NCBI GenBank assembly: GCA_964244895.1
Contig: CAXTKV010000088.1
Coordinates: forward strand, 1 to 10,896
From: an uncultured Deinococcales bacterium
Lineage (GTDB): Bacteria > Deinococcota > Deinococci > Deinococcales > JAAFIG01
Length of the DNA: 10,896 nt
Reading direction: 5' to 3'
The position numbers and the translations under genes are program-made. The notes under the pieces were generated by a model. It ran no database searches, was not told the origin of the DNA, and was given only the letters and a program-made list of their open reading frames with translations. This document shows positions 210 through 10,482 of this stretch, piece by piece (position 1 is the stretch's first letter; each line of letters starts with the position of its first letter).

Positions 210-290
210 GATTCTCCGTGGTCGCACGATGTTTTCAGGCACGAACCTGGTATTTCGTTGTGTCGAACTTGATGGTTGTCGTCTCGAGAA

Positions 291-348
291 TACACCGTCC
301 AGCACGGCATTCTTGATGCTCGAGAATTCACTGTCCTGGACGGTGTTC
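291..348. repeat. Paired quasi-palindromic intergenic motif, locus 1 (centres 301 and 337, 36 bp)
   Basis: TACACCGTCC-A-GCACGG ... CACTGTCC-T-GGACGGTGTTC. Confidence 0.85.
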
Positions 349-417
349 CTGATTTACGAAAGGATGTTCGATGGAGTCCCAACCCGCTCGAGTTCGGTCG
401 ACATCGTCTGGGACGCG

Positions 418-1461
418 TCAACCACCGGGCTCGAGAATCACCTTGCTGGCCTGGCGTCGATCAAAAAGCGCGTAGCCTTCAGCCGCGTCCAGCAGGCTCA
501 TGCGGTGGCTGACCACCACGGTCGGGTCGATCCTGCCGGACGCCACGAGTTTCAGCGTGGTGTCGATGTCGCGGTGAATGTTCGCCAGCCCGACGCGGAA
601 ACTCACGTCCTTGTTGAGGCTGTCGCGCAAGGGGTATTCCAGGGTTTCGGTGGTGCTGACGCCGACCGCGCTGATGCGCCCGCCGGGACGCACCAGCTCG
701 AACGCCAGCAGGATGGTTTTCGTGCCGCCGACCGCTTCGACGATCACGTCCGCGCCGTCTCCGTCGGTGATCTCGAGCACGCGGCGCACGGGGTTGGATT
801 CCCTGGAATCGACGCCGATGGCTCCGAGCGATTCCGCCAGCGCCACGCGTTCGGGCACCAGGTCGATCGCGATCACGCGACCCGCACCCTGCGCGAAGGC
901 GCTCTGCACCGCCATGATCCCGACCGGGCCGCAACCGATCACCGCGACCGTTTCACCGGGCTCGAGCTGCGCGTTCTTGACCGCGCCGTAGGCGGTCGTC
1001 AGGATGTCGCCGCAGAAGAGCGCGGCCTCGTCGGAAACACTTTCAGGGATGGCGCGCAGGTTCACGTCGGCCACGGGAATCCGCGCGTATTCGGCCTGCG
1101 TGCCGTTCAGGTTGCCGAACACCGGCCCGTACCCAAGCACGCCCGCCGCGACGCACTGGTGGTACTCGCCGCGACGGCAGGCGCGGCAGCGCCCGCAGGC
1201 CGTGTGGAAGGTGCCGACCACCCGATCACCGACCTGGAAGCCGCGCACGCCGGGGGCAGCGGCTTCGATCACGCCGGTGTACTCGTGTCCGCAGGTGTCG
1301 CCGGGCAGCATCGGAATATCGCCGTGCAGCAAATGCAAATCGGAACCGCAGATCGCGCACTTGGTGACGCGCACGATCGCGTCCTGGTCGTCCTGCAATT
1401 CGGGTTCAGGCACGTCGGACACGGTCATGACACCGATGTCCTGGAAGGTCACGGCTTTCAC
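418..1461 (-). CDS. Zinc-dependent medium-chain alcohol/aldehyde dehydrogenase (FDH-like MDR family), 347 aa
   Basis: Motifs CGSDLH, GHE, structural-Zn CGRCRACRRGEYHQC, GDILTTAY and Rossmann GCGPVG. The likely start is GTG 1461 (MKAVTFQD), with SD GGAG at 1466-1469 and a GTGA overlap with the upstream SCP2 stop. The track's extension to 1857 looks spurious. Confidence 0.93.
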   Translation of the reverse strand: MKAVTFQDIGVMTVSDVPEPELQDDQDAIVRVTKCAICGSDLHLLHGDIPMLPGDTCGHEYTGVIEAAAPGVRGFQVGDRVVGTFHTACGRCRACRRGEYHQCVAAGVLGYGPVFGNLNGTQAEYARIPVADVNLRAIPESVSDEAALFCGDILTTAYGAVKNAQLEPGETVAVIGCGPVGIMAVQSAFAQGAGRVIAIDLVPERVALAESLGAIGVDSRESNPVRRVLEITDGDGADVIVEAVGGTKTILLAFELVRPGGRISAVGVSTTETLEYPLRDSLNKDVSFRVGLANIHRDIDTTLKLVASGRIDPTVVVSHRMSLLDAAEGYALFDRRQASKVILEPGG

Positions 1462-1883
1462 GGTTCTCCGGGGAAGGCCGTTTCCGCCTGCGTGGCGCAA
1501 TGCACCAGTTCCTTGGCGGCGGCCACGTAGCGCGCCAGCACGGCCATGTTGCCTTTGACCAGCTTCAACTTGCCGCGCAGCAAACCCTGGATCGGCTCGA
1601 GCTTGCCCTCGAGCACCTGACGCCAGGTGTACGCGTCCGCGCTGACGATGTACTGCGCGTGCGCCAGGTCGTCCGGGCTGGCGGCGCGACCGTCGCGGCA
1701 TTCGCCGTGCCACAAATCGAAATACGCGCTGCGCGCTTCGGGCACGCCGATGCTCGGGTCGGATTGCAGCGTGAAGACCATCGCGCCTTCCCAGGTTTTG
1801 GCGGCCTGTTTGTACCCGGCGCTGTTGCGAATCACGTCTGCGGCGGTTTTCGCCCATTCGTCGCTGAATAACTCGAGCTTCAT
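1458..1883 (-). CDS. SCP2 sterol/lipid-binding domain protein, 141 aa
   Basis: MKLELFSDEW...YKQAAKTWEG...TWRQVLEGKLEPIQGLLRGKLKLVKGNM is a typical SCP2 C-terminal signature. ATG at 1883, SD GAGGAGG at 1891-1897. Confidence 0.88.
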   Translation of the reverse strand: MKLELFSDEWAKTAADVIRNSAGYKQAAKTWEGAMVFTLQSDPSIGVPEARSAYFDLWHGECRDGRAASPDDLAHAQYIVSADAYTWRQVLEGKLEPIQGLLRGKLKLVKGNMAVLARYVAAAKELVHCATQAETAFPGEP

Positions 1884-1920
1884 GCGTCGGCCTCCTCGAG
1901 AACCTTGAGTGTGTGACCGC

Positions 1921-1926
1921 ATCCTA
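1921..1926 (-). promoter_or_regulatory. Putative -10 box (TAGGAT) of the SCP2-ADH operon
   Basis: TAnnnT hexamer about 25 nt upstream of the SD sequence. Confidence 0.5.
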
Positions 1927-1954
1927 GCCCGCGCTTCCCCAAAACGCGATGCGC

Positions 1955-2017
1955 GAGAACACCGTCCTGGACAGCGTCGTTTGATACGCAAGATTCCGCG
2001 TGCTGGACGGTGTTCTT
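1955..2017. repeat. Paired motif, locus 2 (centres 1968 and 2004, 36 bp)
   Basis: GAGAACACCGTCC-T-GGACAG ... CGCGTGC-T-GGACGGTGTTCTT. Confidence 0.9.
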
Positions 2018-2086
2018 CGATTTTTGGCTCGAGACGCGAAGCTCGAGGATTCGCGTTCGCGCTGGAAACTCGAGCATCCTTTTTTC

Positions 2087-2176
2087 GTCATCCTGAACTT
2101 TGTTCAGGATCTTTCGCCGTTGTGCAGCCTGACTCGCTCACCTCGAGATCCTTCGTCGTGAACTCTTCAGGATGAC
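2087..2176. repeat. 90-bp REP/RPE-like palindromic element (GTCATCCTGA family)
   Basis: 11-bp terminal inverted repeats GTCATCCTGAA / TTCAGGATGAC, internal hairpin ATCCTGAAC-TTT-GTTCAGGAT, and inner AGGATCT / AGATCCT arms. Confidence 0.8.
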
Positions 2177-2187
2177 AGCGTGAAAGC

Positions 2188-3033
2188 TCAGGCCGAACCC
2201 AATTCCACGTCGATCGGGTACGACCCCAGCACCTTCACGAAGGTCGCCTTCTGGAGCAAATTCACCAGCGCCCGCGAGACGACGGGATCGTTGGCGTGAC
2301 CCTCGAAATCCACATAGAACACGTAACTCCAGGCGCGGTCGCGGCGCGGACGGGATTCGATCTTGGTCATGTTCAATCCCGCGAGCGTGGAGAGCGAATC
2401 GATCAGCGCACCCGGCTTGTGGCGCACGGCGAAGACGATGCTGGTCTTGAAGGTGTGGTCGGTGCGCGCGGGTTCCTCGCGGGAAAGCATGAAAAAGCGC
2501 GTGTAGTTGAACTCCTCGTCCTCGATGGCTTCCTTCAAGATCTCGAGGCCGTACAGTTCGGCGGCGCGGCGCGACGCGATCACGGCCTCGTCGCGGGCTT
2601 CTCGAGCCACGAGTTCCTGCGCGCTGCCCGCCGTGTCGAAGGCTTCGACGGCTTTGAGGTTGTGCTCCGCGATGAAGCCATCGCATTGCGCCAGCGCCTG
2701 CGGATGAGAGCGCACCACGCGCACGTCGGAAAGTTTCACGCCCGGCAGGGCCATCAGGCAGTGCGAGACGCGCACCACGATCTCTCGGGCGACGTGCAAG
2801 TCCGTCTCGAGGAGCAGATCAAAATTCTGGTAGATTGCGCCCGCCAGCGAGTTTTCCACCGGCACGACGCCCAGGTCGGCGGAGCCATCGCGCACGGCGG
2901 CGAAGACCTCGTGGAAGGTGCGGTAGCCGCGCGGTTCGGCGTGCTGGCTGGCCTCGCGCGCGGCGATCTCGCCATACGCGCCGGGCACGCCCTGGAAGGC
3001 GACGGTGACAGGGTTCACGGCTGCTGATTTCAT
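2188..3033 (-). CDS. pheA: Prephenate dehydratase (PDT + ACT domain)
   Basis: Motifs [45 protein letters not shown] and NMTKIESRP...[12 protein letters not shown] 3033 lies 7 nt after a TACCCT -10 box. Confidence 0.96.
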
Positions 3034-3040
3034 GATTGCC

Positions 3041-3070
3041 AGGGTACGCGCGCAATCCACTTTCACGCAA
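3041..3070 (-). promoter_or_regulatory. Leaderless-type promoter of pheA (TTGCGT-18 nt-TACCCT-7 nt-ATG)
   Basis: -10 at 3041-3046, -35-like at 3065-3070, no SD sequence. Confidence 0.65.
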
Positions 3071-3078
3071 GTTGATTC

Positions 3079-3129
3079 AAGAACACCGTCCCGGACGCAT
3101 TCTCGAGAACACGTGCCGGACGGTACTTT
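3079..3129. repeat. Paired motif, locus 3 (centres 3092 and 3117, 25 bp)
   Basis: AAGAACACCGTCC-C-GGACGC ... CACGTGC-C-GGACGGTACTTT. Confidence 0.9.
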
Positions 3130-3132
3130 TCA

Positions 3133-3268
3133 GTCCTCCCCCGTTTACACGGGAGGTGGCATCAGCCCGCCTTGGGCTGATGCCGGAGGAGTCTGGCGCG
3201 ACCCCTCCGTCTCGAGCCATCCAACATCGGGATGACTCGATCCACCTCCTCTACTTCGCAGGGGATGG
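3133..3268. repeat. Inverted doublet of CCTCCCC-type structured REP units (3133-3193 on +, 3200-3268 on -)
   Basis: Each unit reads CCTCCCC-loop-GGG(G)AGGTG-[variable hairpin]-GGAGG(G/A)GTC. The hairpins are GGCATCAGCCC/GGGCTGATGCC and TCGAGTCATCC/GGATGGCTCGA. Confidence 0.82.
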
Positions 3269-3289
3269 CACAAACCAGGGTCTCGCGGT

Positions 3290-4528
3290 TCAGCTCGCGA
3301 GTTTCGCCATCGTGCGGGCCAGAACTTCGATGCCACGGGCGATGTCCTCGGGTGCGGCGTACTCGTCGGGGCGGTGGCTGACCCCGGCGCGGCACGGAAT
3401 GAAAATCATGCCGACAGGCGCGATGCGCGCCATGAACAACGAATCGTGGTACGCCCGAGAGACCATCTCGAGGCGCGGCAGGTTCATGTCGTCGCACGCG
3501 GCGCGGATCGCGTCCAGCACGGTTGGGTCGCTCAGTGCGGGCGGGTCGGAATTGATCACCTCGAGCGTGAAGTCAATCTCGCGCCTGCCGCAGATTTCTT
3601 CGATGGCATCCTGCACCCGATTGACGGCCTCGTCGCGCCTCGCGCCGTCGATGTCGCGCACGTCGATGCCCAGGGTCGCTTGACTGGGAATGCTGTTGAT
3701 CGCGCCGGGATGAATTTCGAGGATGCCGGTCGTGCCCACGGCGTCGATCGCGCCCGCGTCCAGCGCGGCTTTCTCGACCGCCAGCGCGATCTCGGCAGCG
3801 GCCAGAAGCGCGTCGCGGCGTCCGGGCATCAGGCGCGCCCCGGCGTGGCCGCCCTCGCCGGTCAGGCGCACGAAGAAACTGGCGGGTGCGGCGATGGCGG
3901 TCACGATGCCGATGGGCAGGTGTTGCTGCTCGAGGATCGGGCCTTGCTCGATGTGCAATTCCACGAAAGCGGCGTAACGATCCGCGCCCAGTCTGACGGA
4001 CTCGAGTGCGCCCGTGAAGCCCGCACCCGCGCGCACCGTCTCGGGATCGAGGCCTTCGGCGTCGCGCAGGGCGCGCAGCTGATCGGGCGTGAACGCGCCC
4101 GACATCGCCCGAGAACTCAGGCAGCCCACGCCGAAGCGCGTGGGTTCCTCGGCGGTGAACATGATCAGTTCCAGTGATCGGGTGGGCGCAAAACCCGCGC
4201 GCTTCAACGCCCGCAGCGCCTCGAGCCCGCCCAGCACGCCGACCGTGCCGTCAAAGCGCCCCGAGTGCGGAATCGCGTCCGCGTGCGAACCCGTCGCCAC
4301 CGCCGGAAGACGCTGGTCAGAACCTTCCATACGCACGAACAGCGTGCCCAACGCGTCCTCGCGCCATGTGAAACCCGCCTCGTCGCACAAGGATTTGATG
4401 TAGGCTCGCGCTTCCAGATCGGTTTTCGTGTACAGCACGCGCGTCACGGCTGGCGCTGGCGCGTCCGAAAACGAGGCCAGATGCTCGAGTTCGGCCCAGA
4501 CGAGGTCAATATCGACGTGAATGTCCAT
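3290..4528 (-). CDS. M20 metallo-amidohydrolase, most like (S)-ureidoglycolate amidohydrolase (plant UAH-type), 412 aa
   Basis: Motifs GSHADA, G..DGTVGVL, EEPTRFG, ELHIEQGP, GHAG and SH.PDE. SDAPAPAVTRVLYT and SRAYHDSLFMARIAPVGMIFIPC resemble plant UAH rather than AllC (SGAGHDA). The gene is adjacent to allE. Confidence 0.88.
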   Translation of the reverse strand: MDIHVDIDLVWAELEHLASFSDAPAPAVTRVLYTKTDLEARAYIKSLCDEAGFTWREDALGTLFVRMEGSDQRLPAVATGSHADAIPHSGRFDGTVGVLGGLEALRALKRAGFAPTRSLELIMFTAEEPTRFGVGCLSSRAMSGAFTPDQLRALRDAEGLDPETVRAGAGFTGALESVRLGADRYAAFVELHIEQGPILEQQHLPIGIVTAIAAPASFFVRLTGEGGHAGARLMPGRRDALLAAAEIALAVEKAALDAGAIDAVGTTGILEIHPGAINSIPSQATLGIDVRDIDGARRDEAVNRVQDAIEEICGRREIDFTLEVINSDPPALSDPTVLDAIRAACDDMNLPRLEMVSRAYHDSLFMARIAPVGMIFIPCRAGVSHRPDEYAAPEDIARGIEVLARTMAKLAS

Positions 4529-4535
4529 GCGCTCG

Positions 4536-4541
4536 AGTCTA
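4536..4541 (-). promoter_or_regulatory. -10 box TAGACT 7 nt upstream of ATG 4528 (leaderless-type)
   Basis: TAGACT-CGAGCGC-ATG, no SD sequence. Confidence 0.65.
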
Positions 4542-4551
4542 AGGGTCGCGC

Positions 4552-4614
4552 GACCCCTCCGTCACCAGCCGACACCGGGCTGATGACATCTCCCCTATCA
4601 AGGCAGGGGAGGAC
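4552..4614 (-). repeat. CCTCCCC-type structured REP unit
   Basis: Reverse complement GTCCTCCCCTGCCTTGATAGGGGAGATGTCATCAGCCCGGTGTCGGCTGGTGACGGAGGGGTC is colinear with 3133-3193 and has compensatory stem changes. Confidence 0.85.
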
Positions 4615-4630
4615 AAAACTCGTCGGGCTC

Positions 4631-4690
4631 GAGAAGACCGTCCAGGACGGGGTTTCTCGAGCGTCAAAAACCGCGTGTGGAACGGTCTTT
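4631..4690. repeat. Paired motif, locus 4 (centres 4644 and 4679, 35 bp)
   Basis: GAGAAGACCGTCC-A-GGACGGGGTTTC ... CGCGTGT-G-GAACGGTCTTT. It abuts the allE stop codon. Confidence 0.82.
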
Positions 4691-5429
4691 ACTCGAGCGG
4701 GTGGCGGTTCCAGTCCTTGTAGATCAGGTACGCGCTCGGCGTCTTGCCCAAAGCACCGAACCATTGCGGGCAGTACGGAGCCATGTAGATCACGTCCCCG
4801 GCGGTGACGGGATACCAGGCGTCGGACAGGCGGTAGATGCCGCCGCCCGTCAGCATCACCAGGCCGTGCTCCATGACGTGAACCTCGACCATTGATAAAC
4901 TTGCGCCGGGATCGTAGATCATGGTGTTGACCGCGAAATCGAAGGCGGGATCGTCGGGCAACAGCACCCGCACCCTCAAGGCCGGGTCACCACCCAACGG
5001 GCTCGAGGCGAGCTTATTGGCGTTGCCGACCAGGAATTTGGGCGGTTTGACGCCCTCCAGATCCTGGTAGGGTTTCTCGATCACGATGCTGCGGGACGCT
5101 GTTCTGGACGCGATCTCGTGCTCCTGCTCGGGCGGGATGTACGCGTACCCGCCGGGTTTGAGCGCGTGGGATTTCTTGCCGATCTGCAGGCTCAACTCGC
5201 CGTCCAGCACGTACACGAATCGGCTGGCGTCGGGGTCTGCCCGACCGAACACGCCGCCCGGTTGCGCCTCGACGGTGTACTCCGTGAATCCCGCCCCGAG
5301 CGTCGGGTTGATGTGAACGATGCAGGTCGCGTCGACGAATCCCGGCCAGGCCGCGCGGACGAAGGTGTCCGCCGTCAACAGGGCGTGATCGGGTTTGACG
5401 CTGGTGCGGGTGAATCCGAGTTGCTGCAT
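4689..5429 (-). CDS. allE: (S)-ureidoglycine aminohydrolase (bicupin), 246 aa
   Basis: Motifs LGFTRTSVKPDHALLT, FDFAVNTM, VEVHVMEHGL...GGGIYRL..WYPVTAGDVIYMAPYCPQWFGALGK...YLIYKDWNRHP. ATG at 5429 with SD GGAGG at 5437-5441. Confidence 0.95.
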   Translation of the reverse strand: MQQLGFTRTSVKPDHALLTADTFVRAAWPGFVDATCIVHINPTLGAGFTEYTVEAQPGGVFGRADPDASRFVYVLDGELSLQIGKKSHALKPGGYAYIPPEQEHEIASRTASRSIVIEKPYQDLEGVKPPKFLVGNANKLASSPLGGDPALRVRVLLPDDPAFDFAVNTMIYDPGASLSMVEVHVMEHGLVMLTGGGIYRLSDAWYPVTAGDVIYMAPYCPQWFGALGKTPSAYLIYKDWNRHPLE

Positions 5430-5449
5430 GGTCTCGCCTCCGTCCCAGG

Positions 5450-5458
5450 AGTCTGGCA
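5450..5458 (-). promoter_or_regulatory. Possible extended -10 (TG-C-CAGACT) for allE
   Basis: Lies 8 nt upstream of the SD sequence. The first base is non-consensus. Confidence 0.35.
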
Positions 5459-5499
5459 CGGGGCGCGCCCACGGCGCGAATCTCGAGCCCTGAGATCCC

Positions 5500-5580
5500 A
5501 AGAACACCGTCCCGGACGCAATTTCAAGGACGCGTGCTGGACGGTGCTTTCAGTCCTCCCTCACTTCGCGGGAGAGGCAA
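5500..5580. repeat. Paired motif, locus 5 (centres 5513 and 5538, 25 bp), followed by a single REP hairpin
   Basis: AAGAACACCGTCC-C-GGACGC ... CGCGTGC-T-GGACGGTGCTTT CAGTCCTCCCTCACTTCGCGGGAGAGGC. This is a near direct repeat of 3079-3156. Confidence 0.9.
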
Positions 5581-5611
5581 AAAAGCGGGTTCTCGAGATC
5601 GGGCGTGCGGC

Positions 5612-6175
5612 TTAACCGTCCACCAGCGCCCGATAGTTCGCCAGTCCCGGCGCGGCGAAGGTCTCGAGCAGCTCCATCCAGAGCGAGGTCTGACCCAACA
5701 GCGGCCTCGAGAGCACCAGGTAGGTCGGGCCTTTCAGGTTCACGAACGCGGCGCGGCGATCCGGCGGCAGGGTCACGGAACCGATCAGGTTATCGATCAG
5801 ATCGCAGACCTTGACGGCCCAGGCTTCGGCATCCTGGGCGCGTTCGAGCCGCGAAACCATGCCCGCCCAGCGCCGGTCTTTCCCGAGCCCCGTCCTGACC
5901 TCCAGGCTCATGTCGTGGCTGGAGAGGTCGACGATCTCGAGGGTGCGCTCCGAGTACCCCAGCTCGCGCAAGTTCTCGAGCGAGGTCTCGCCGTCCTCGA
6001 CGATATCGTGCAGCAGCCCAGCCAACACCACGTCCTGGGCGTAACCGTGCCGCGTCAGGCGTTCGGCGACGCGCAGGCTGTGATGGTACGCGGGTTCCGT
6101 GGAACCCTTGCGTACCCCCGGAATTCTCTGGCTGACGAGCTTCACGCCGAGCTGATAAAGCGGATCTTGGGTCAT
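5612..6175 (-). CDS. Stand-alone RelA/SpoT-type HD-domain hydrolase (HD_4 / small alarmone hydrolase / Mesh1-like), 187 aa
   Basis: RKGSTEPAYHHSLRVA, LAGLLHDIVEDG and VKVCDLIDN match the RSH HD motifs R..GEPY..H, AALLHD.VED and VKLADRLHN. Confidence 0.8.
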   Translation of the reverse strand: MTQDPLYQLGVKLVSQRIPGVRKGSTEPAYHHSLRVAERLTRHGYAQDVVLAGLLHDIVEDGETSLENLRELGYSERTLEIVDLSSHDMSLEVRTGLGKDRRWAGMVSRLERAQDAEAWAVKVCDLIDNLIGSVTLPPDRRAAFVNLKGPTYLVLSRPLLGQTSLWMELLETFAAPGLANYRALVDG

Positions 6176-6181
6176 GCCTTC

Positions 6182-6187
6182 AGTCTA
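6182..6187 (-). promoter_or_regulatory. -10 box TAGACT 6 nt upstream of ATG 6175 (leaderless-type)
   Basis: TAGACT-GAAGGC-ATG. Confidence 0.65.
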
Positions 6188-6194
6188 GTCCCGT

Positions 6195-6247
6195 AAGAAC
6201 ACCGTTCCACACGGTGTTCTTTGAAGTGCGTGCTGGACGGTGTTCTT
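6195..6247. repeat. Paired motif, locus 6 (centres 6208 and 6234, 26 bp)
   Basis: AAGAACACCGT-TCCAC-ACGGTGTTCTT (perfect 11-bp arms) ... GCGTGC-T-GGACGGTGTTCTT. Confidence 0.9.
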
Positions 6248-6291
6248 TGATGGGAGTCTCGAGCCGGGTGCGGTCGGCAAGGATCAAAGGC

Positions 6292-6933
6292 TCACAGCGA
6301 CCCGTTTCTCGAGGCCGGGCGCACGACCCTGGTGACGACCCAGCGGTGCGGCGCAATCTGCCGGGTACGGGTGAAGCCGTGGTTCTCGAAGGCGGCCATC
6401 GGCCCGGTGTGCAGGAACGAACCCGCGAGCGTGCGGTCGTCGGTCTCCTCGGGGTAGCCCTCGACCGTGCCGCCCCCGACGCGGGCGATCTCGGCCAGCG
6501 CCCCACCGAGCGCGGCGTTGGCGACGCCACGACCGCGCAGGCCCTTGCCGGTGAAGAAGCACGTGATGCGCCAGTCCGGCATGGCGACCAGGCCCTTCTC
6601 GTACAGGCGTCGGCTCTTGATCTCCGGCAGCTCGTCGGGGGAGCCGAACTGACACCAGCCCAGGCACTGATCGCCGTCGAAGACCAGCGCGGCGTGGGTG
6701 CGGCCATCATGGACGCGCTGCTCCTTCTCGGCTCGGTTTTGCGCCGCCGTGCGCCCCTTGAGCCTGACGTGAAAGCCCATGCACCAGCAGCCTCCCCAGA
6801 TACCGTTATTCGCCTCGACGAGTTGCGCAAATGCGTCCCAGGTGTCAGGTGTTAGCGGCCTGACCGCGTACTCGCTCGTGTCGGAAGCCTCGGCTGGCCT
6901 TCTGGAAATGTCCGTCGAAATTTTTTTAGCCAT
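6292..6933 (-). CDS. GNAT-family N-acetyltransferase (GCWC-motif type), about 213 aa
   Basis: Motifs WGGCWCMGFH, GWCQFG, ITCFFT..GLRGRGVA (acetyl-CoA binding), VEGYP and FENHGF. Likely ATG 6933 overlaps the upstream DinB stop. Confidence 0.88.
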   Translation of the reverse strand: MAKKISTDISRRPAEASDTSEYAVRPLTPDTWDAFAQLVEANNGIWGGCWCMGFHVRLKGRTAAQNRAEKEQRVHDGRTHAALVFDGDQCLGWCQFGSPDELPEIKSRRLYEKGLVAMPDWRITCFFTGKGLRGRGVANAALGGALAEIARVGGGTVEGYPEETDDRTLAGSFLHTGPMAAFENHGFTRTRQIAPHRWVVTRVVRPASRNGSL

Positions 6934-7495
6934 CGCTTTCCCCTGGAGCGTTCGCCCCTGGAGCCGCGCCACCGGACGGCTCCGCCCTGAGGTACCACAG
7001 GTCGAGGCTAGGCGGTTTGTGCCCGAGCGAGCGGATCATCTGCACGATCTGAGCGGTGTGGCGCACCTCGTGCTGCATGGCGTGCCAGACGACCTCATCG
7101 GCTGACATGGTTTCTGGGCGATCCTCGGCGAGCTTGACCGCAGGGTTCTCTGCGACGACGGCCATCAGCGCGGGCCAGCGGGCCAACGTGTCCGTCTCTA
7201 CGGCTCGCCAGTACGCCAGCAGAGATTCCAGTGATTCATTTTGATGGTGCCAGTACGCGTCCTCGGAGGTCGGCGCTCTGTTCATGGCATCCATCACCAT
7301 CGGTTGACCGAGCAAATCCCCTCGGAACCAGCCGTCCTCGACCACGGCGATGTGCGCCACCAGGTCCTTGATGCAGCGCGCTCCGTCCGTCGGAACGACC
7401 GCTTTTGAAAGCGTCTCGTCGGGTAGGGTCTCGAGCGAGGCCCAGAGTTTGCGGCGCGCCCACATCAGGTAACGGTAGAACGCTTCTGCGGTCAC
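6926..7495 (-). CDS. DinB/YfiT-family four-helix metalloprotein, 189 aa
   Basis: His pattern IKDLVAHIAVVEDGW and WHAMQHEVRHTAQI..MIR.LG..PP. GTG start with SD AGGAG at 7503-7507. Confidence 0.9.
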   Translation of the reverse strand: MTAEAFYRYLMWARRKLWASLETLPDETLSKAVVPTDGARCIKDLVAHIAVVEDGWFRGDLLGQPMVMDAMNRAPTSEDAYWHHQNESLESLLAYWRAVETDTLARWPALMAVVAENPAVKLAEDRPETMSADEVVWHAMQHEVRHTAQIVQMIRSLGHKPPSLDLWYLRAEPSGGAAPGANAPGESDG

Positions 7496-7537
7496 GTGAA
7501 GACTCCTTTTCGCGGAACAGTCGTGACGATCCGCTGT

Positions 7538-7846
7538 TCAAGCGCGGCTGCGGGCGCGTCGGGCGTGAACCTCGAGTTGCACGGTCACGGTATCGCCTTC
7601 TTCCAGACCTTCCGCTTCGCGGACGCTGGTTTTGATCGGCACGACGTAGCGGCCCTCTTTGGGAAACAAGGAGGTCTTCCATTCGGTCTCACCGATGCGC
7701 GCGTTGACCGGGATCATGCCCCAGCCGTAGGTCACCAACCTCGCGGCAGTCTTGATGGCGGCGCACTCCGATTCTGGAACGGTCACGAAGTAATACGGGG
7801 CGGGGCCGCGCCAGTGCCAGATTTCACCGCGAAATTCCAGGCTCAT
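7538..7846 (-). CDS. DUF1905 domain protein, 102 aa
   Basis: F.GEIWHWRGPAPYYFVTVP...YGWGMIPV.ARIG.TEWKTSLFPK...YVVPIK.SVR.AEGL..GD.VTV. Confidence 0.88.
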   Translation of the reverse strand: MSLEFRGEIWHWRGPAPYYFVTVPESECAAIKTAARLVTYGWGMIPVNARIGETEWKTSLFPKEGRYVVPIKTSVREAEGLEEGDTVTVQLEVHARRARSRA

Positions 7847-7855
7847 GGGTTCAAC

Positions 7856-8371
7856 CTATTTCTGAATCAGGTCTGAGGCAGCCACAGCATCGGCTGAAGC
7901 TCGATCGCCGGTGACCGCGCGGCGGTGGTAGTCAATCTGCCCGAGGTGATACACCAGGTGCGTCAGAAACTGAAGCAGGGTGAGCCTGATCGAGAATTCT
8001 GCGTCCGCGAATTGCACCGGAAAGGCTTCCTTCAAGCGGTCTTCGCTCAGGTTTGCGAAGGCTGCCCGCACAGCTTGTCCGGCTCTCGAGAGTTCTCGCT
8101 TGAGTTCGTTTCGGGACGCGTCGCGCCTGCTGAATTCCGCCGCTCGATCCCGAACGTATCCCGACTCGCCGAGTACCGCCCCAAAAAAGTATTGCAAACT
8201 TCCCGCCAGGTGCAAGAACAACGTGCCTGCCGGGTTAGGCAAGCCCGGAAGTTCTTTCCAGATGCCCCTTTCGTCGGGGTAGAGGTCTAGCTCGCGCTCC
8301 AGGGTGGCCAACTCGCGCAAGTAGAGCGTTGCTAGTTCCTGGAGCAGGCTCGGGTCGGTGGCTTCTGGCAT
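7856..8371 (-). CDS. DinB-family (DUF1572 / DinB_2-like) protein, about 171 aa
   Basis: Motifs NPAGTLFLHLAGSL...YVRDRAAEF and LTHLVYHLGQIDYHRR. SD GGAGGT at 8378-8383 favours ATG 8371. Confidence 0.87.
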   Translation of the reverse strand: MPEATDPSLLQELATLYLRELATLERELDLYPDERGIWKELPGLPNPAGTLFLHLAGSLQYFFGAVLGESGYVRDRAAEFSRRDASRNELKRELSRAGQAVRAAFANLSEDRLKEAFPVQFADAEFSIRLTLLQFLTHLVYHLGQIDYHRRAVTGDRASADAVAASDLIQK

Positions 8372-8399
8372 GTCCATACCTCCGTTCATTGTTACGAAA

Positions 8400-8429
8400 A
8401 TTGTACTGAGAATTACGCTAACACCGTAT
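8400..8429 (-). promoter_or_regulatory. Promoter of the DinB operon: -10 TACAAT (8400-8405) plus an RDRM-like 17-mer TTACGCTAACACCGTAT (8413-8429)
   Basis: AT-rich stretch. The 17-mer has 2 mismatches to the DdrO-box pattern TTAYGYYnnnRRCRTAA. Confidence 0.5.
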
Positions 8430-8492
8430 TATGGCGCGGTCAACCTGCGACCTCACGCGGTCAGAGCGCCCCGAACAGTGCTGTAGCGCCGC

Positions 8493-8543
8493 AAACACCG
8501 TCCTAGACGAGATTCCCGAGAATGCGTCCAGGACGGTGTTCTT
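8493..8543. repeat. Paired motif, locus 7 (centres 8504 and 8530, 26 bp)
   Basis: AAACACCGTCC-T-AGACG ... GCGTCC-A-GGACGGTGTTCTT. Confidence 0.88.
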
Positions 8544-8556
8544 TAGGGACACACAT

Positions 8557-8591
8557 GAAAAGCCCTCGAGCCAGACGGCGCTCGAGGGCTT
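8557..8591 (-). terminator. Probable intrinsic terminator of the desaturase gene
   Basis: 12-bp perfect stem AAGCCCTCGAGC / GCTCGAGGGCTT with an 8-nt loop, ending in TTTTC. It starts 16 nt after the stop. The U-tract is short. Confidence 0.65.
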
Positions 8592-8607
8592 CGGGTTTGC
8601 GCGTGGC

Positions 8608-9717
8608 TCAATCGTCGGCGGAAATCGGCTCGGGCTGGGCGCGCTGCGTGGGCCACAAGGGGTTCGGCACGAGCGGCACGGGATCGATCTTGTCCATGCC
8701 GTAGCTGGCCTCGTACTTCTGGATTTTCTGGTAGAGCTTCTGCACGTCGCGCTCGAGGTTGGTGGGATCAAACGTCTCCCAGATGGCGGTCTGGCGCATC
8801 TGACCGTCCTCGTCGGGAACCAGGCGCGTGCGTTTGATGCCGTCCTCGAGGTGGCGCTTGCCCTTGACGCCGAACTGGTCGAACACGACCGCCACCACGT
8901 CGCGGGCGTACTCGCGCGGCCCGTAGATGGCGGTGCGGTACGCGACCTCGTAGAACGCATCCCAGTTGGGCACGATATCGCTGGCGGGCATGGCGAAGTG
9001 GTTGATCACGTCGCGCATGGCTTCCAGGGTTTCAGTCGGGTAGTAGTACATGAACAGCTTCGCGCATTCCAAAAAGAAGTTGTAGTGCGCGGCCTCGTCA
9101 GCCGCGATGGTCACCGAGACCTTGGCCAGCACGGGGTCTTCGTTGCCCAGCATTTCTTCTTTGGTGGGCTTACCGACCGCGACTTTGGCCAGGTTCAGGT
9201 AGTTGAGCTGCGTGGCGCGCTCCTGGAAAACGGTGTACAGCAACACGTGCAACGCGTCATCCCAAGGTAGCTTCCACTCGTTGGTGCGCAGCTGGTACTT
9301 GTAATCCTCGAGGTACGCGGGCGTGCGGCTCTTGGAGAACAACACCGCGTTCTCCCAGGTGTCGGCGTGCTTTTCTTCCTCGCTGCCCCAGCGCATCTGG
9401 AAGTGGCTGCGACCGTGGCTGCGGCGCACCATGTAGAGGAATTTCGCGACGTAATCCGGCGCGTACTGCTCGACGGCGAAGAAGCCTTCGAGCACCTGCT
9501 GGACTTGCGGGCTGTAATCGGTGCGCATGTTGCGCCAGTCGAAACCCGAATCCGGGTTCCAGTTGCGGGTTTCCTGGCTGCGGGAGGTGTACCAGCGGTA
9601 CAGACCCAGGATGCCGCGTTCGATCAGGCGGTCGCGGTAGGAACGGGACAGCAGGGCGGCGGGTGAAACCGGGCGGTCGGCCTCGATCAGTTCTCGAGGG
9701 GGCGTGATGATGTTCAT
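8608..9717 (-). CDS. Soluble di-iron acyl-ACP desaturase family protein (FA_desaturase_2, ferritin-like), 369 aa
   Basis: Two ExxH motifs (WGSEEEKHAD, IAADEAAHYNFF), plus YTVFQERATQLNYLN and FAMPA. SD AAGGAG at 9722-9727. Confidence 0.88.
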   Translation of the reverse strand: MNIITPPRELIEADRPVSPAALLSRSYRDRLIERGILGLYRWYTSRSQETRNWNPDSGFDWRNMRTDYSPQVQQVLEGFFAVEQYAPDYVAKFLYMVRRSHGRSHFQMRWGSEEEKHADTWENAVLFSKSRTPAYLEDYKYQLRTNEWKLPWDDALHVLLYTVFQERATQLNYLNLAKVAVGKPTKEEMLGNEDPVLAKVSVTIAADEAAHYNFFLECAKLFMYYYPTETLEAMRDVINHFAMPASDIVPNWDAFYEVAYRTAIYGPREYARDVVAVVFDQFGVKGKRHLEDGIKRTRLVPDEDGQMRQTAIWETFDPTNLERDVQKLYQKIQKYEASYGMDKIDPVPLVPNPLWPTQRAQPEPISADD

Positions 9718-9797
9718 GGGACTCCTTGCATGGGGTGGGTACTCGAGCCGTGCGGCTCGGGTGGTTCAGACTTCAGCGTCGGGATGAATGGCTCATC

Positions 9798-10241
9798 TTA
9801 CGCGTTGAAGCGCACCCACAAGACGAAGGATTTGCGCCAGACCGACGACGGATTCGGGCGGCGCGCCCACTCGCAGGAACCGGCCAGGAAGGCCAGAACG
9901 CTTTTCAGCACGACATCGAGCGTGATCCGTACCGTCAGCGGGCGCGTCACCCAGGCCATGCTGGACGGGGTTTCGTCGCGCTCTTCGCGCTGCAAGGCCA
10001 GGAAAGCGGAAATCAAAGCGGCAATCAACCACGCGCGGCTGGCCTCGAGCCGCGCCGTGCCGGACTGCCAGGTCGGACTGGCCTCGAGCCGCAACACGAA
10101 CGCCTGCCAGGACGGGTTGGCCTCGAGCCGAGAGACCAGCGCCGAGACCTCGAGCCGCGCGGCCAGCGACGATCCGACGATTCGTGCCGCCACGAGCGGC
10201 AACGCCAATCCCAACTCCAGTCGGAGCGTCGGGACGGGCAT
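9798..10241 (-). CDS. Hypothetical hydrophobic protein with 13-aa RLEA..W repeats (existence and start uncertain)
   Basis: Co-oriented ORF filling the gap, with an in-frame 39-bp repeat. No recognisable family and no SD sequence. Confidence 0.4.
   Translation of the reverse strand: MPVPTLRLELGLALPLVAARIVGSSLAARLEVSALVSRLEANPSWQAFVLRLEASPTWQSGTARLEASRAWLIAALISAFLALQREERDETPSSMAWVTRPLTVRITLDVVLKSVLAFLAGSCEWARRPNPSSVWRKSFVLWVRFNA
10039..10130. repeat. Degenerate 39-bp tandem repeat (about 2.4 units) anchored on GGCCTCGAGCCG
   Basis: CTCGAG at 10044, 10083 and 10122 (39-bp period), then at 10149. The units share CTGCCAGG.CGG. Confidence 0.75.
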
Positions 10242-10323
10242 GGCGCGCAGGACAATCACAGGGTCAGCGTACCAGGAACGAACCGGGCAGATTGGGGCGT
10301 TTGACCGTCTCAAATCATGATTT

Positions 10324-10364
10324 GAACACCGTTCAAACCGAAAATTGGTGTCGTGGACGGCGTG
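10324..10364. repeat. Degenerate paired-motif copy (centres about 10335 and 10354)
   Basis: GAACACCGTTC-A-AACCG ... TGTCG-T-GGACGGCGTG. The 19-bp spacing does not fit the pattern of the other loci. Confidence 0.45.
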
Positions 10365-10432
10365 CAATACCAAAGACTCGCGAGCCTGAGAATCCATCCC
10401 GAGATCGACTCCAGGAAGCCGGGCTGAGATTC

Positions 10433-10482
10433 GAGAACACCGTCCAGCACGCAGAACAAGGATGCCCTCAGGGACGGTCTTT
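10433..10482. repeat. Paired motif, locus 8 (centres 10446 and 10471, 25 bp)
   Basis: GAGAACACCGTCC-A-GCACGC ... CCTCA-G-GGACGGTCTTT. The right site overlaps the last codons and stop of the thioesterase gene. Confidence 0.8.

What the first reader, a model, noticed from the sequence alone, without database searches (positions are those of the whole stretch)
291..10482. Helically phased paired-palindrome element in every large intergenic gap
Seen directly: eight clear loci (291-348, 1955-2017, 3079-3129, 4631-4690, 5500-5550, 6195-6247, 8493-8543, 10433-10482) each hold two copies of a dyad with ideal form GAACACCGTCC-N-GGACGGTGTTC. The outer half-sites are conserved and the inner half-sites are degenerate. 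Centre-to-centre spacings are 36, 36, 25, 35, 25, 26, 26 and 25 bp. These form two classes about 10.5 bp (one B-DNA turn) apart with no intermediates, while the linker sequence varies. The element is absent from tight operon junctions. It borders functionally unrelated genes (Phe synthesis, purine catabolism, lipid genes, RNA ligase), at about one locus per 1.3 kb. Inference: spacing quantised by a helical turn suggests two protein dimers binding duplex DNA cooperatively in fixed geometry. An RNA hairpin would not be expected to impose that constraint. The density seems too high for a normal regulon, so this may be an undescribed genome-wide architectural or insulator site, or the recognition site of the enzyme that spreads the element. 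I do not recognise it as parS, matS, LexA, RDRM or a known REP.
Basis: partly seen in the sequence, partly recalled or inferred. Interest (0 to 1): 0.9.

Follow-up and report, generated by a model that had tools for sequence, protein, structure and literature searches.

The report
Paired DNA-bending sites punctuating gene ends

Summary
Confirmed. All eight loci and spacings are exact. Genome-wide there are 1,437 strong pairs at 25/26 or 35/36 bp (1,780 with weak partners). They are non-clonal, nearly always one per gap and crowd stop codons. The pair was found only in this lineage, but the single dyad is order-wide and lies where IHF binds elsewhere. It sits in the 34-bp gap between oriC DnaA boxes (18 of 19) and at -23 and -117 in type I-C CRISPR leaders (23 and 18 of 30). 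Those offsets are the midpoints of the IHF-consensus matches in other phyla's leaders. It also lies beside tRNA/integrase sites and plasmid rep genes. The genome has three HU-type genes and none passes an IHF cut-off. Best reading: a symmetric, GC-rich IHF-substitute bend site, likely read by HU, amplified into double-bend modules at gene ends. Binding, bending, function and the mode of spread are untested. Terminator, MITE and REP membership tests failed. The scan noted this repeat before on another piece of this genome and called it REP-like (e1-2224752).

The parts
290..348 (.). paired dyad, centres 301/337, spacing 36
1957..2015 (.). paired dyad, centres 1968/2004, spacing 36
3081..3128 (.). 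paired dyad, centres 3092/3117, spacing 25
4633..4690 (.). paired dyad, centres 4644/4679, spacing 35; abuts the cupin gene stop; a congener contig aligns through it
5502..5549 (.). paired dyad, centres 5513/5538, spacing 25
6197..6245 (.). paired dyad, centres 6208/6234, spacing 26; a congener contig aligns through it
8493..8541 (.). paired dyad, centres 8504/8530, spacing 26
10435..10482 (.). paired dyad, centres 10446/10471, spacing 25; the right dyad is weak and overlaps the thioesterase stop
10324..10365 (.). probable decayed ninth copy (two outer arms, centres about 19 nt apart), below the PWM threshold
   Evidence: seen in sequence

Best explanation
Each 23-bp palindrome (core CGTS-YNR-SACG with A/T-rich flanks) occupies the positions held by IHF sites in other bacteria and is likely the Deinococcota bend site of an HU-type homodimer; this lineage carries about 1,800 pairs of it, many at gene ends, where two dimers would fold the DNA into a fixed double bend. 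SHOWN: the motif lies at a fixed offset in the oriC inter-box gap and on the IHF axis of type I-C CRISPR leaders across the order, and beside tRNA/integrase sites and plasmid rep genes; the pair spacing is quantised; copies keep place and length in congeners. INFERRED: the binder is a DNABII protein whose prolines kink the two pyrimidine-purine steps that flank the 9-bp core (9-bp kink spacing recalled from IHF/HU structures). The symmetry would reflect a homodimer. Spacings of 2.4 and 3.4 turns would give an S-shaped rather than a closed bend. The module would act as a topological or structural boundary after transcription units, as proposed for E. coli RIB/BIME-1. The pairs probably began as copies of one unit, by an enzyme not found here, and are now kept by selection. 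Rough odds: IHF-equivalent bend site 0.8; binder is HU-type given that, 0.65; boundary or compaction role of the pairs 0.45.
For: oriC: 19 of 30 dnaA loci could be anchored without using the motif. In 18 of those 19 the best core match in the 34-bp gap between DnaA boxes lies 19-20 bp before the DUE-side box (mean 7.21 of 10 against 3.56 +/- 0.88 over offsets). G000's own origin has it. IHF and HU bind the analogous R1-R5M gap of about 35 bp in E. coli (PMC10325909, passages). CRISPR: leaders were found with a pattern that lacks the motif. Of 30, 23 score >=8/10 at -22..-25 and 18 at -113..-119, against a 3.7% background for best-of-4. In 16 correctly anchored I-C leaders from Cas2 loci the best distal site is at -115..-118 in 16 and the best proximal site at -22..-24 in 12 (this set overlaps). 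In 13 leaders from named non-Deinococcota plasmids and unnamed viral contigs the motif is absent (<=6/10 proximal). In 8 of them IHF-consensus matches centre at -30/-17 and at -122..-124/-110..-113 in opposite orientations; the midpoints, -23.5 and about -117, equal the dyad centres. I-C leaders are described as carrying several IHF sites (bioRxiv 2023.05.26.542337, passages). Single dyads lie beside RepA genes (5 loci, PF10134), 12-16 bp from tRNA ends (6 loci, 3 with PF00589 integrase hits), in a cI/cro-like gap, and as 77-79 and 87-89 bp pairs around mobile-element promoters. 14 of 42 G000 tRNAs have the core at +15..+17. G000 has three PF00216 genes and none reaches the ihfA/ihfB cut-offs. 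All 32 Deinococcota DNABII arms read have a V-K/R-P-G-T tip unlike IHF's R-N-P-K-T. Pair: within 25 nt of a stop in 106 of 163 long convergent gaps (31 expected) and 241 of 566 tandem gaps (56 expected); two per gap in 4 tandem gaps of 200-300 nt against 55 expected. Occupancy is 291/426 convergent, 917/1,708 tandem and 174/502 divergent gaps. Two orthologous pairs keep their length, with 2/36 outer-arm, 9/32 core and 15/28 middle differences.
Against: No binding, bending or knockout data. D. radiodurans HU is described as binding by DNA structure, with no motif reported (bioRxiv 10.64898/2026.08.18.745388, abstract and passages). Another HU shows no leader preference (PMC13769266, passages). 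Leaders and origins of related genomes are not independent. 11 of 30 oriC loci were dropped for lack of an anchor, including all five of family f5; one search shows the site in some of those and not in L277 or L278. The named T. thermophilus plasmid leader lacks a clear proximal site, and the distal site is weak in families f4 and f5. 5 of 13 control leaders have no IHF match in the slots. Many low-copy hits in genus g7 lie in genes or plain contexts. About 50 bits per pair far exceeds the 11 bits needed to mark 2,500 sites (inflated by ascertainment), which points to copying. In the 25 class rare variants are mirrored across arms twice as often as chance (322 against 152), a hint of hairpin-level events. 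Perfect single dyads after tRNAs look like terminators. The 18 other genomes of the family have 1-3 HU genes each and lack the pairs (one copy in G005 aside), so the pairs are dispensable in relatives.
Confidence: 0.62

Rival explanations
1. The pair is a selfish REP/REPIN-like unit that captured the host bend site, was spread by a transposase that is now lost or unassembled, and has no host function as a pair; it survives after stop codons because it does least harm there.
For: REP-like distribution near 3' ends and in convergent or tandem gaps (compare PMC3733652 passages). Lineage-restricted: 2 of 201 genomes in the order, the second with one copy. Absent from plasmid- and island-like contigs (0 of 33 gaps on C15). 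Excess information content. Tandem and divergent gaps with an element are about 67 nt longer.
Against: No master sequence: 728 of 728 span-48 copies are distinct and the mean nearest-neighbour distance is 6 of 48 or 11 of 58. No target duplication. No Y1, IS110 or RT gene in a 91%-complete genome. Strong one-per-gap rule. Orthologous copies keep length and arms while the middle turns over. No clean insertion polymorphism in the congener pieces listed by two read-layings (tables were cut).
Confidence: 0.2
2. The dyad is the IHF-equivalent site, but the binder is an unrelated, still unknown sequence-specific protein conserved in Deinococcota, as mycobacterial mIHF is unrelated to IHF (recalled).
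For: All the positional evidence names no protein. The outer arm is 90-99% conserved at most positions, which suggests base-specific reading beyond what HU usually does. DrHU is described as structure-specific.
Against: The axis coincides with the IHF axis and the conserved YR steps are 9 bp apart, which fits a DNABII fold. HU is proposed for wide oriC gaps, with T. thermophilus among the origins listed. Borrelia Hbb is an HU/IHF-family protein with a mapped oriC site (PMC2811001, passages). No DUF1931 histone in G000.
Confidence: 0.22
3. The pairs are RNA hairpins: bidirectional terminators or 3' mRNA stabilisers.
For: They lie just after stops and are enriched in convergent gaps. Most fold end to end (485 of 503 and 280 of 331). 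Arm mirroring occurs in the 25 class. Perfect dyads with T tails follow some tRNAs.
Against: No G.U excess on the transcribed strand (493 against 552 A.C in class 25; 350 against 446 in class 35). Five or more T in the next 8 nt in only 5-9%. Real elements fold about as well as random half-chimeras, and only 1 kcal better in class 25. No arm covariation in class 35 (66 against 70). 174 of 502 divergent gaps carry one. No Rfam match. RNA gives no reason for a 10-bp step.
Confidence: 0.1
4. A DNA uptake sequence driven up by biased transformation.
For: Thousands of copies and inverted pairs after genes; 174 hits inside coding interiors against 38-47 in synonymous shuffles.
Against: Only 24 of 1,780 pairs lie inside genes; fixed single-copy positions in oriC and leaders; quantised spacing is unexplained.
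Confidence: 0.03

Closest known systems
IHF binding sites (E. coli oriC R1-R5M gap, type I-C/I-F CRISPR leaders, lambda att, plasmid origins)
   Same: Same places and the same axis: oriC inter-box gap, leader -23 and -117, beside tRNA/integrase sites and rep genes.
   Different: Symmetric, GC-rich core instead of the asymmetric AT-rich IHF consensus; no gene passing ihfA/ihfB cut-offs; binding untested.
E. coli RIB / BIME-1 (two REPs around an IHF site at 3' ends of transcription units; Boccard and Prentki 1993, seen only as a cited title and a one-line description in PMC2817692)
   Same: A repeated intergenic unit of fixed geometry that carries an architectural-protein site and sits at gene ends.
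   Different: Here the unit is two bend sites with no REP arms, two length classes one turn apart, about 1,800 copies, non-clonal, and no RAYT found.
GTAG/CGTC REPs and REP dimers/REPINs (PMC3733652, passages)
   Same: Short, palindromic, intergenic, close to stop codons, lineage-restricted, in inverted doublets.
   Different: No terminal GTAG/CGTC tag, no master sequence, no Y1 transposase in the assembly; the monomer has a conserved single-copy role at oriC and CRISPR leaders.
Borrelia Hbb and Thermotoga/E. coli HU at oriC (PMC2811001, PMC10325909, passages)
   Same: Non-IHF DNABII proteins acting at a defined origin site.
   Different: HU's site choice there depends on DnaA; no GC-rich consensus or genome-wide paired amplification is described in the passages read.

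Membership tests
IHF site | matches the IHF consensus (recalled) | tested here: not met
   2 of 30 Deinococcota leaders have a <=2-mismatch match centred at -36..-12; the dyad core is GC-rich
IHF site | lies in the wide DnaA-box gap next to the DUE | tested here: met
   18 of 19 anchored origins
IHF site | lies on the proximal and distal bend axes of type I-C leaders | tested here: met
   23/30 and 18/30; axis from control leaders
IHF site | host encodes IHF alpha and beta | tested here: not met
   three PF00216 genes, all far below himA/hip cut-offs; they are also below the E. coli HU cut-offs, and the best PDB match of one is the HU of entry 5eka
IHF site | bound and sharply bent by a DNABII protein | not testable with these tools
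   needs EMSA, permutation assay or ChIP
RIB / BIME-1 | two REPs flanking one IHF site | tested here: not met
   the unit is two dyads with 2-13 nt between them
RIB / BIME-1 | located at 3' ends of transcription units | tested here: met
   strong stop-proximal and convergent bias, though 214 of the assigned pairs' gaps are divergent
GTAG/CGTC REP, REPIN | terminal GTAG or CGTC tag outside a stem-loop | tested here: not met
   CGTC lies inside the dyad; the ends are GAAC/GTTC
GTAG/CGTC REP, REPIN | associated Y1 transposase (RAYT) | tested here: inconclusive
   0 PF01797 hits, control rang in 6 of 14 genomes, assembly 91% complete
GTAG/CGTC REP, REPIN | dominant master sequence (recalled) | tested here: not met
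   728/728, 116/116, 373/373 and 158/158 distinct
MITE | terminal inverted repeats | tested here: met
   outer 11-bp arms
MITE | target-site duplication | tested here: not met
   no excess for k = 2-8 over nine offsets
MITE | clonal subfamilies with conserved linkers | tested here: not met
Intrinsic terminator | U tract after the stem | tested here: not met
   5-9% with >=5 T in 8 nt
Intrinsic terminator | RNA-level selection on the stem (G.U bias, covariation) | tested here: not met
   mirroring in class 25 only
DNA uptake sequence | abundant inside coding DNA (recalled) | tested here: not met
   24 of 1,780 pairs in genes; about 4-fold coding excess of single hits

The most novel reading that the evidence does not exclude
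Deinococcota HU is a sequence-guided IHF substitute with its own symmetric GC-rich code. One lineage has written that code as about 1,800 helically phased double kinks at half of its larger gene boundaries, a DNA-encoded nucleoid folding and insulation pattern akin to nucleosome positioning, with a separate structured 39-nt micro-element parasitising the sites.
Probability: 0.35. Interest if true: 0.92.

Novelty: new variant of a known kind. Interest (0 to 1): 0.82.

Why it matters
It gives a concrete sequence answer to what replaces IHF in a phylum that lacks it, testable at once in Deinococcus radiodurans and Thermus thermophilus at oriC, CRISPR leaders, att sites and plasmid origins. It would also challenge the view that HU reads only DNA shape. 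The genome-wide pairs are a natural experiment in hard-wired nucleoid architecture: one site geometry repeated at half of the larger gene boundaries, with a built-in one-turn variant. Ten paper searches listed no paper describing the motif; they cover open-access text only, I read passages rather than whole papers, and supplements were not opened.

Tried and rejected
Rfam on the window: two chance-level hits, E > 2. Mobilising enzymes in G000: PF01797, PF00078 and PF02371 gave 0 hits; PF04986 gave 0 but its control rang nowhere, so it is uninformative. The 11 tyrosine-recombinase hits show no special dyad arrangement. Integron attC and IS91-end resemblances (recalled) were dropped: there is no polarity to transcription and the neighbours are housekeeping genes. 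Longer-range phasing between successive elements: none (Rayleigh p >= 0.07). A variant paired element in relatives: none in 567 kb sampled from five family genomes. Viral contigs: 0 pairs and 1 contig with single dyads. Plasmid blastn: nothing meaningful. No RNA holder was listed. The read-layings on one metagenome gave no clean presence/absence and their tables were cut. Of 30 Cas2 loci, 14 were left out of the leader count (no array, other subtypes or unclear first repeat); six non-I-C leaders among them showed no dyad. 57 of 65 viral pattern hits were not arrays. Of eight non-Deinococcota plasmid loci, Tistrella, Streptomyces and Bacillus gave no usable leader anchor and were left out. My first oriC anchoring was inconsistent and was redone. 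Gene calls come from my own hexamer model (4,516 genes): stops are reliable, starts approximate. Elhai 2008, Santiago-Frangos 2021 and Boccard 1993 were not held, so claims from them are second-hand or recalled.


Full report
OBSERVATION. The eight loci are real and their centre spacings are 36, 36, 25, 35, 25, 26, 26 and 25 bp. The window is G000:C88:1-10896 of a 5.12-Mb, 328-contig, 91%-complete genome. A same-family record is titled Deinococcales. The 11-bp half-site occurs 1,324 times exactly, against 3-73 for five permuted controls. A PWM gives 4,854 strand hits against 6 in the reversed genome. Pair spacings are 25:714, 26:102, 35:449 and 36:172, with shoulders at 24 and 34, minor classes at 30 (21) and 41 (18), and 1 at 46. 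With weak partners there are 1,780 pairs in the four main classes and 738 lone dyads.

ANATOMY. In copies selected on the outer arms only, dyad positions 5-9 are 95-99% conserved. The unselected inner positions 15-17 are A 0.93, C 0.98 and G 0.87/A 0.13 (span-48 class). The core is therefore CGTS-YNR-SACG, and pyrimidine-purine steps at 7/8 and 16/17 flank a 9-bp centre (CG 96% and YR 98%). A/T tracts lie about one turn out on each side. Inner halves come in a long and a short form, which accounts for the one-base split within each class. Every copy is distinct, there is no target duplication, and there is no polarity to transcription.

GENOMIC CONTEXT. With my own gene calls, 1,536 pairs are fully intergenic, 156 overlap a gene end, 24 are inside genes and 64 lie at contig edges. 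They fill 291/426 convergent, 917/1,708 tandem and 174/502 divergent gaps of 80-500 nt, and 8/880 gaps under 50 nt. They crowd stop codons (106/163 against 31 expected; 241/566 against 56) and almost never double up (4 against 55 expected). Plasmid- and island-like contigs lack pairs: C15, a RepA-like replicon, has 0 of 33 gaps and one dyad upstream of rep.

NOT AN RNA HAIRPIN. There is no G.U excess on the sense strand, no U tract, and folding energy close to that of random half-chimeras. Arm mirroring exists only in the 25 class, which may reflect templated repair of a short inverted repeat (inference).

DISTRIBUTION. The 25/26 pair pattern is found in 2 of 201 genomes of the order. The second has one copy, on a contig whose ORFs look plasmid-like by eye. 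Three metagenome contigs 75-86% identical to G000 carry it. Two keep it at the orthologous site with unchanged length and 2/36, 9/32 and 15/28 differences in outer arms, core and middle; the third site differs. Contigs of a closer congener align through three window elements and two on C7, and break at five other element-bearing gaps with length changes of 0, 2, 23, 33 and 84 nt. The copies look vertically kept, not freshly mobile.

THE SINGLE DYAD IS ORDER-WIDE. A half-dyad pattern gave 39 hits in 60 other genomes against 13 for the reversed control, and 28 of 61 genomes of genus g7 matched a related pattern. The loci fetched (20, 30, partly the same) include 5 beside RepA genes, 6 at 12-16 bp from tRNA ends (3 with integrase Pfam hits), one in a cI/cro-like gap, and eight mobile-element loci with dyad pairs 77-79 or 87-89 bp apart around a promoter-like stretch. 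The rest lie in genes or plain contexts. That is the list of places where IHF works (established knowledge), so I tested two landmarks anchored without the motif.

CRISPR LEADERS. In 16 correctly anchored type I-C leaders, 15 from g7 and one from G000, the best distal site is at -115..-118 in all 16 and the best proximal site at -22..-24 in 12. A pattern built only from the leader and repeat motifs hit all five families. Of the 30 loci returned, from four families, 23 score >=8/10 at -22..-25 and 18 at -113..-119, against 3.7% background. A named Deinococcus wulumuqiensis plasmid leader scores 10 and 9, while a named T. thermophilus one lacks a clear site. In 13 comparison leaders the dyad is missing. 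Eight carry IHF-consensus matches at -30 or -17 and at -122..-124 or -110..-113, in opposite orientations. The midpoints are -23.5 and about -117, the dyad centres. The preprint on the I-F integration complex states that most I-F and I-C leaders hold several IHF sites (passages).

ORIGINS. In 19 of 30 dnaA loci I could anchor the DUE-side box pair. In 18 the best core match in the 34-bp inter-box gap is at -19/-20, with mean 7.21 against 3.56 +/- 0.88. IHF binds the R1-R5M gap in E. coli, HU can take its place, and T. thermophilus is among the origins listed for a potential HU region (PMC10325909, passages).

THE BINDER. G000 has three PF00216 genes, none passing IHF cut-offs; all 41 genomes searched have at least one, and many have only one. 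All 32 arm tips read in G000 and families f1, f2, f4 and f5 differ from IHF next to the intercalating proline; Thermotoga HU shares the valine. A homodimer fits a symmetric site, and a 9-bp kink spacing (recalled) fits the conserved YR steps. Against this, DrHU is described as structure-specific. The binder is inferred, not shown.

MECHANISM. Shown: positions, spacing, constraint. Inferred: two HU-type dimers kink each pair. At 2.4 or 3.4 turns the bends would not close a circle but would offset the helix in an S shape. The mobile-element pairs share that phase (7.4-7.5 and 8.4-8.5 turns), while the two leader sites (8.9 turns) and the rare 30/41 classes are near in-phase. Placed after stop codons and most often between convergent genes, such modules could absorb transcription-driven supercoils or bound transcription units, as proposed for RIB/BIME elements (second-hand). 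The high information content (about 50 against 11 bits) suggests the pairs began by copying. No Y1, IS110 or RT gene was found, so the spreading mechanism is open.

COMPARISON AND VERDICT. It works like an IHF site, and as a repeat like RIB/BIME-1, but it fails membership of IHF sites by sequence and of REPs, MITEs and terminators. Its distribution facts agree with mine, but the oriC and leader results contradict 'ordinary'. A word search of earlier findings for the IHF-like reading returned nothing. Verdict: new variant of a known kind, interest 0.82.

Noticed in passing
G000 genome-wide, e.g. C3:3098, C10:32867, C21:25648, C106:15909; L006: A structured 39-nt micro-element (starts GCG, ends CAAGAA, tandem and nested copies, compensatory stems by eye) inserts at one exact bond of the dyad half-site. 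26 of 46 clusters have the dyad remainder as 3' flank. It is present in 19 of 19 genomes of the family, where it also lands in REPs and genes. No Rfam match. It recalls the Nostoc SDR elements; SDR5 inserts precisely into HIP1 (PMC4390886 passage).
   Followed up: partly
window 2086-2180: Inverted doublet of a CGTC/TGTC-type REP, a separate family (22 copies against 1 control), although no RAYT gene was found.
   Followed up: partly
window 3134-3265, 4547-4615, 5552-5580: A second family of GC-rich hairpin repeats with CCTCCCC...GGGAGG arms next to three of the pairs (I1).
   Followed up: no
whole genome and family: CTCGAG is highly over-represented (about 4-7 per kb) in G000 and in all five relatives sampled, independent of the pairs; HIP1-like.
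   Followed up: no
G000:C151:8015-11705: An array of about 25 tRNA genes, with pairs and dyads between them.
   Followed up: no
L054, L055, L056, L062, L064, L067, L081, L094: Mobile-element leading-region genes (a DUF3560 neighbour and an unknown protein of about 270 aa) preceded by a repeated promoter-like cassette flanked by two dyads 77-89 bp apart.
   Followed up: partly
L053 (190-kb viral contig): Three perfect or near-perfect single dyads, each in a repeated promoter-like context, near a ribonucleotide reductase gene.
   Followed up: partly
G000:C36:30853-30886: The first spacer junction of the type I-C array recreates a dyad-like sequence; probably chance.
   Followed up: no
G000 41-bp class, e.g. 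C14:10498, C37:2269, C111:3814: The rare 41-bp pairs often use a different arm dialect (G at position 4).
   Followed up: no
L001 (G005:C557:1660-1703): One intact pair on a plasmid-like contig of another genus, suggesting DNA transfer from this lineage or a binning error.
   Followed up: partly
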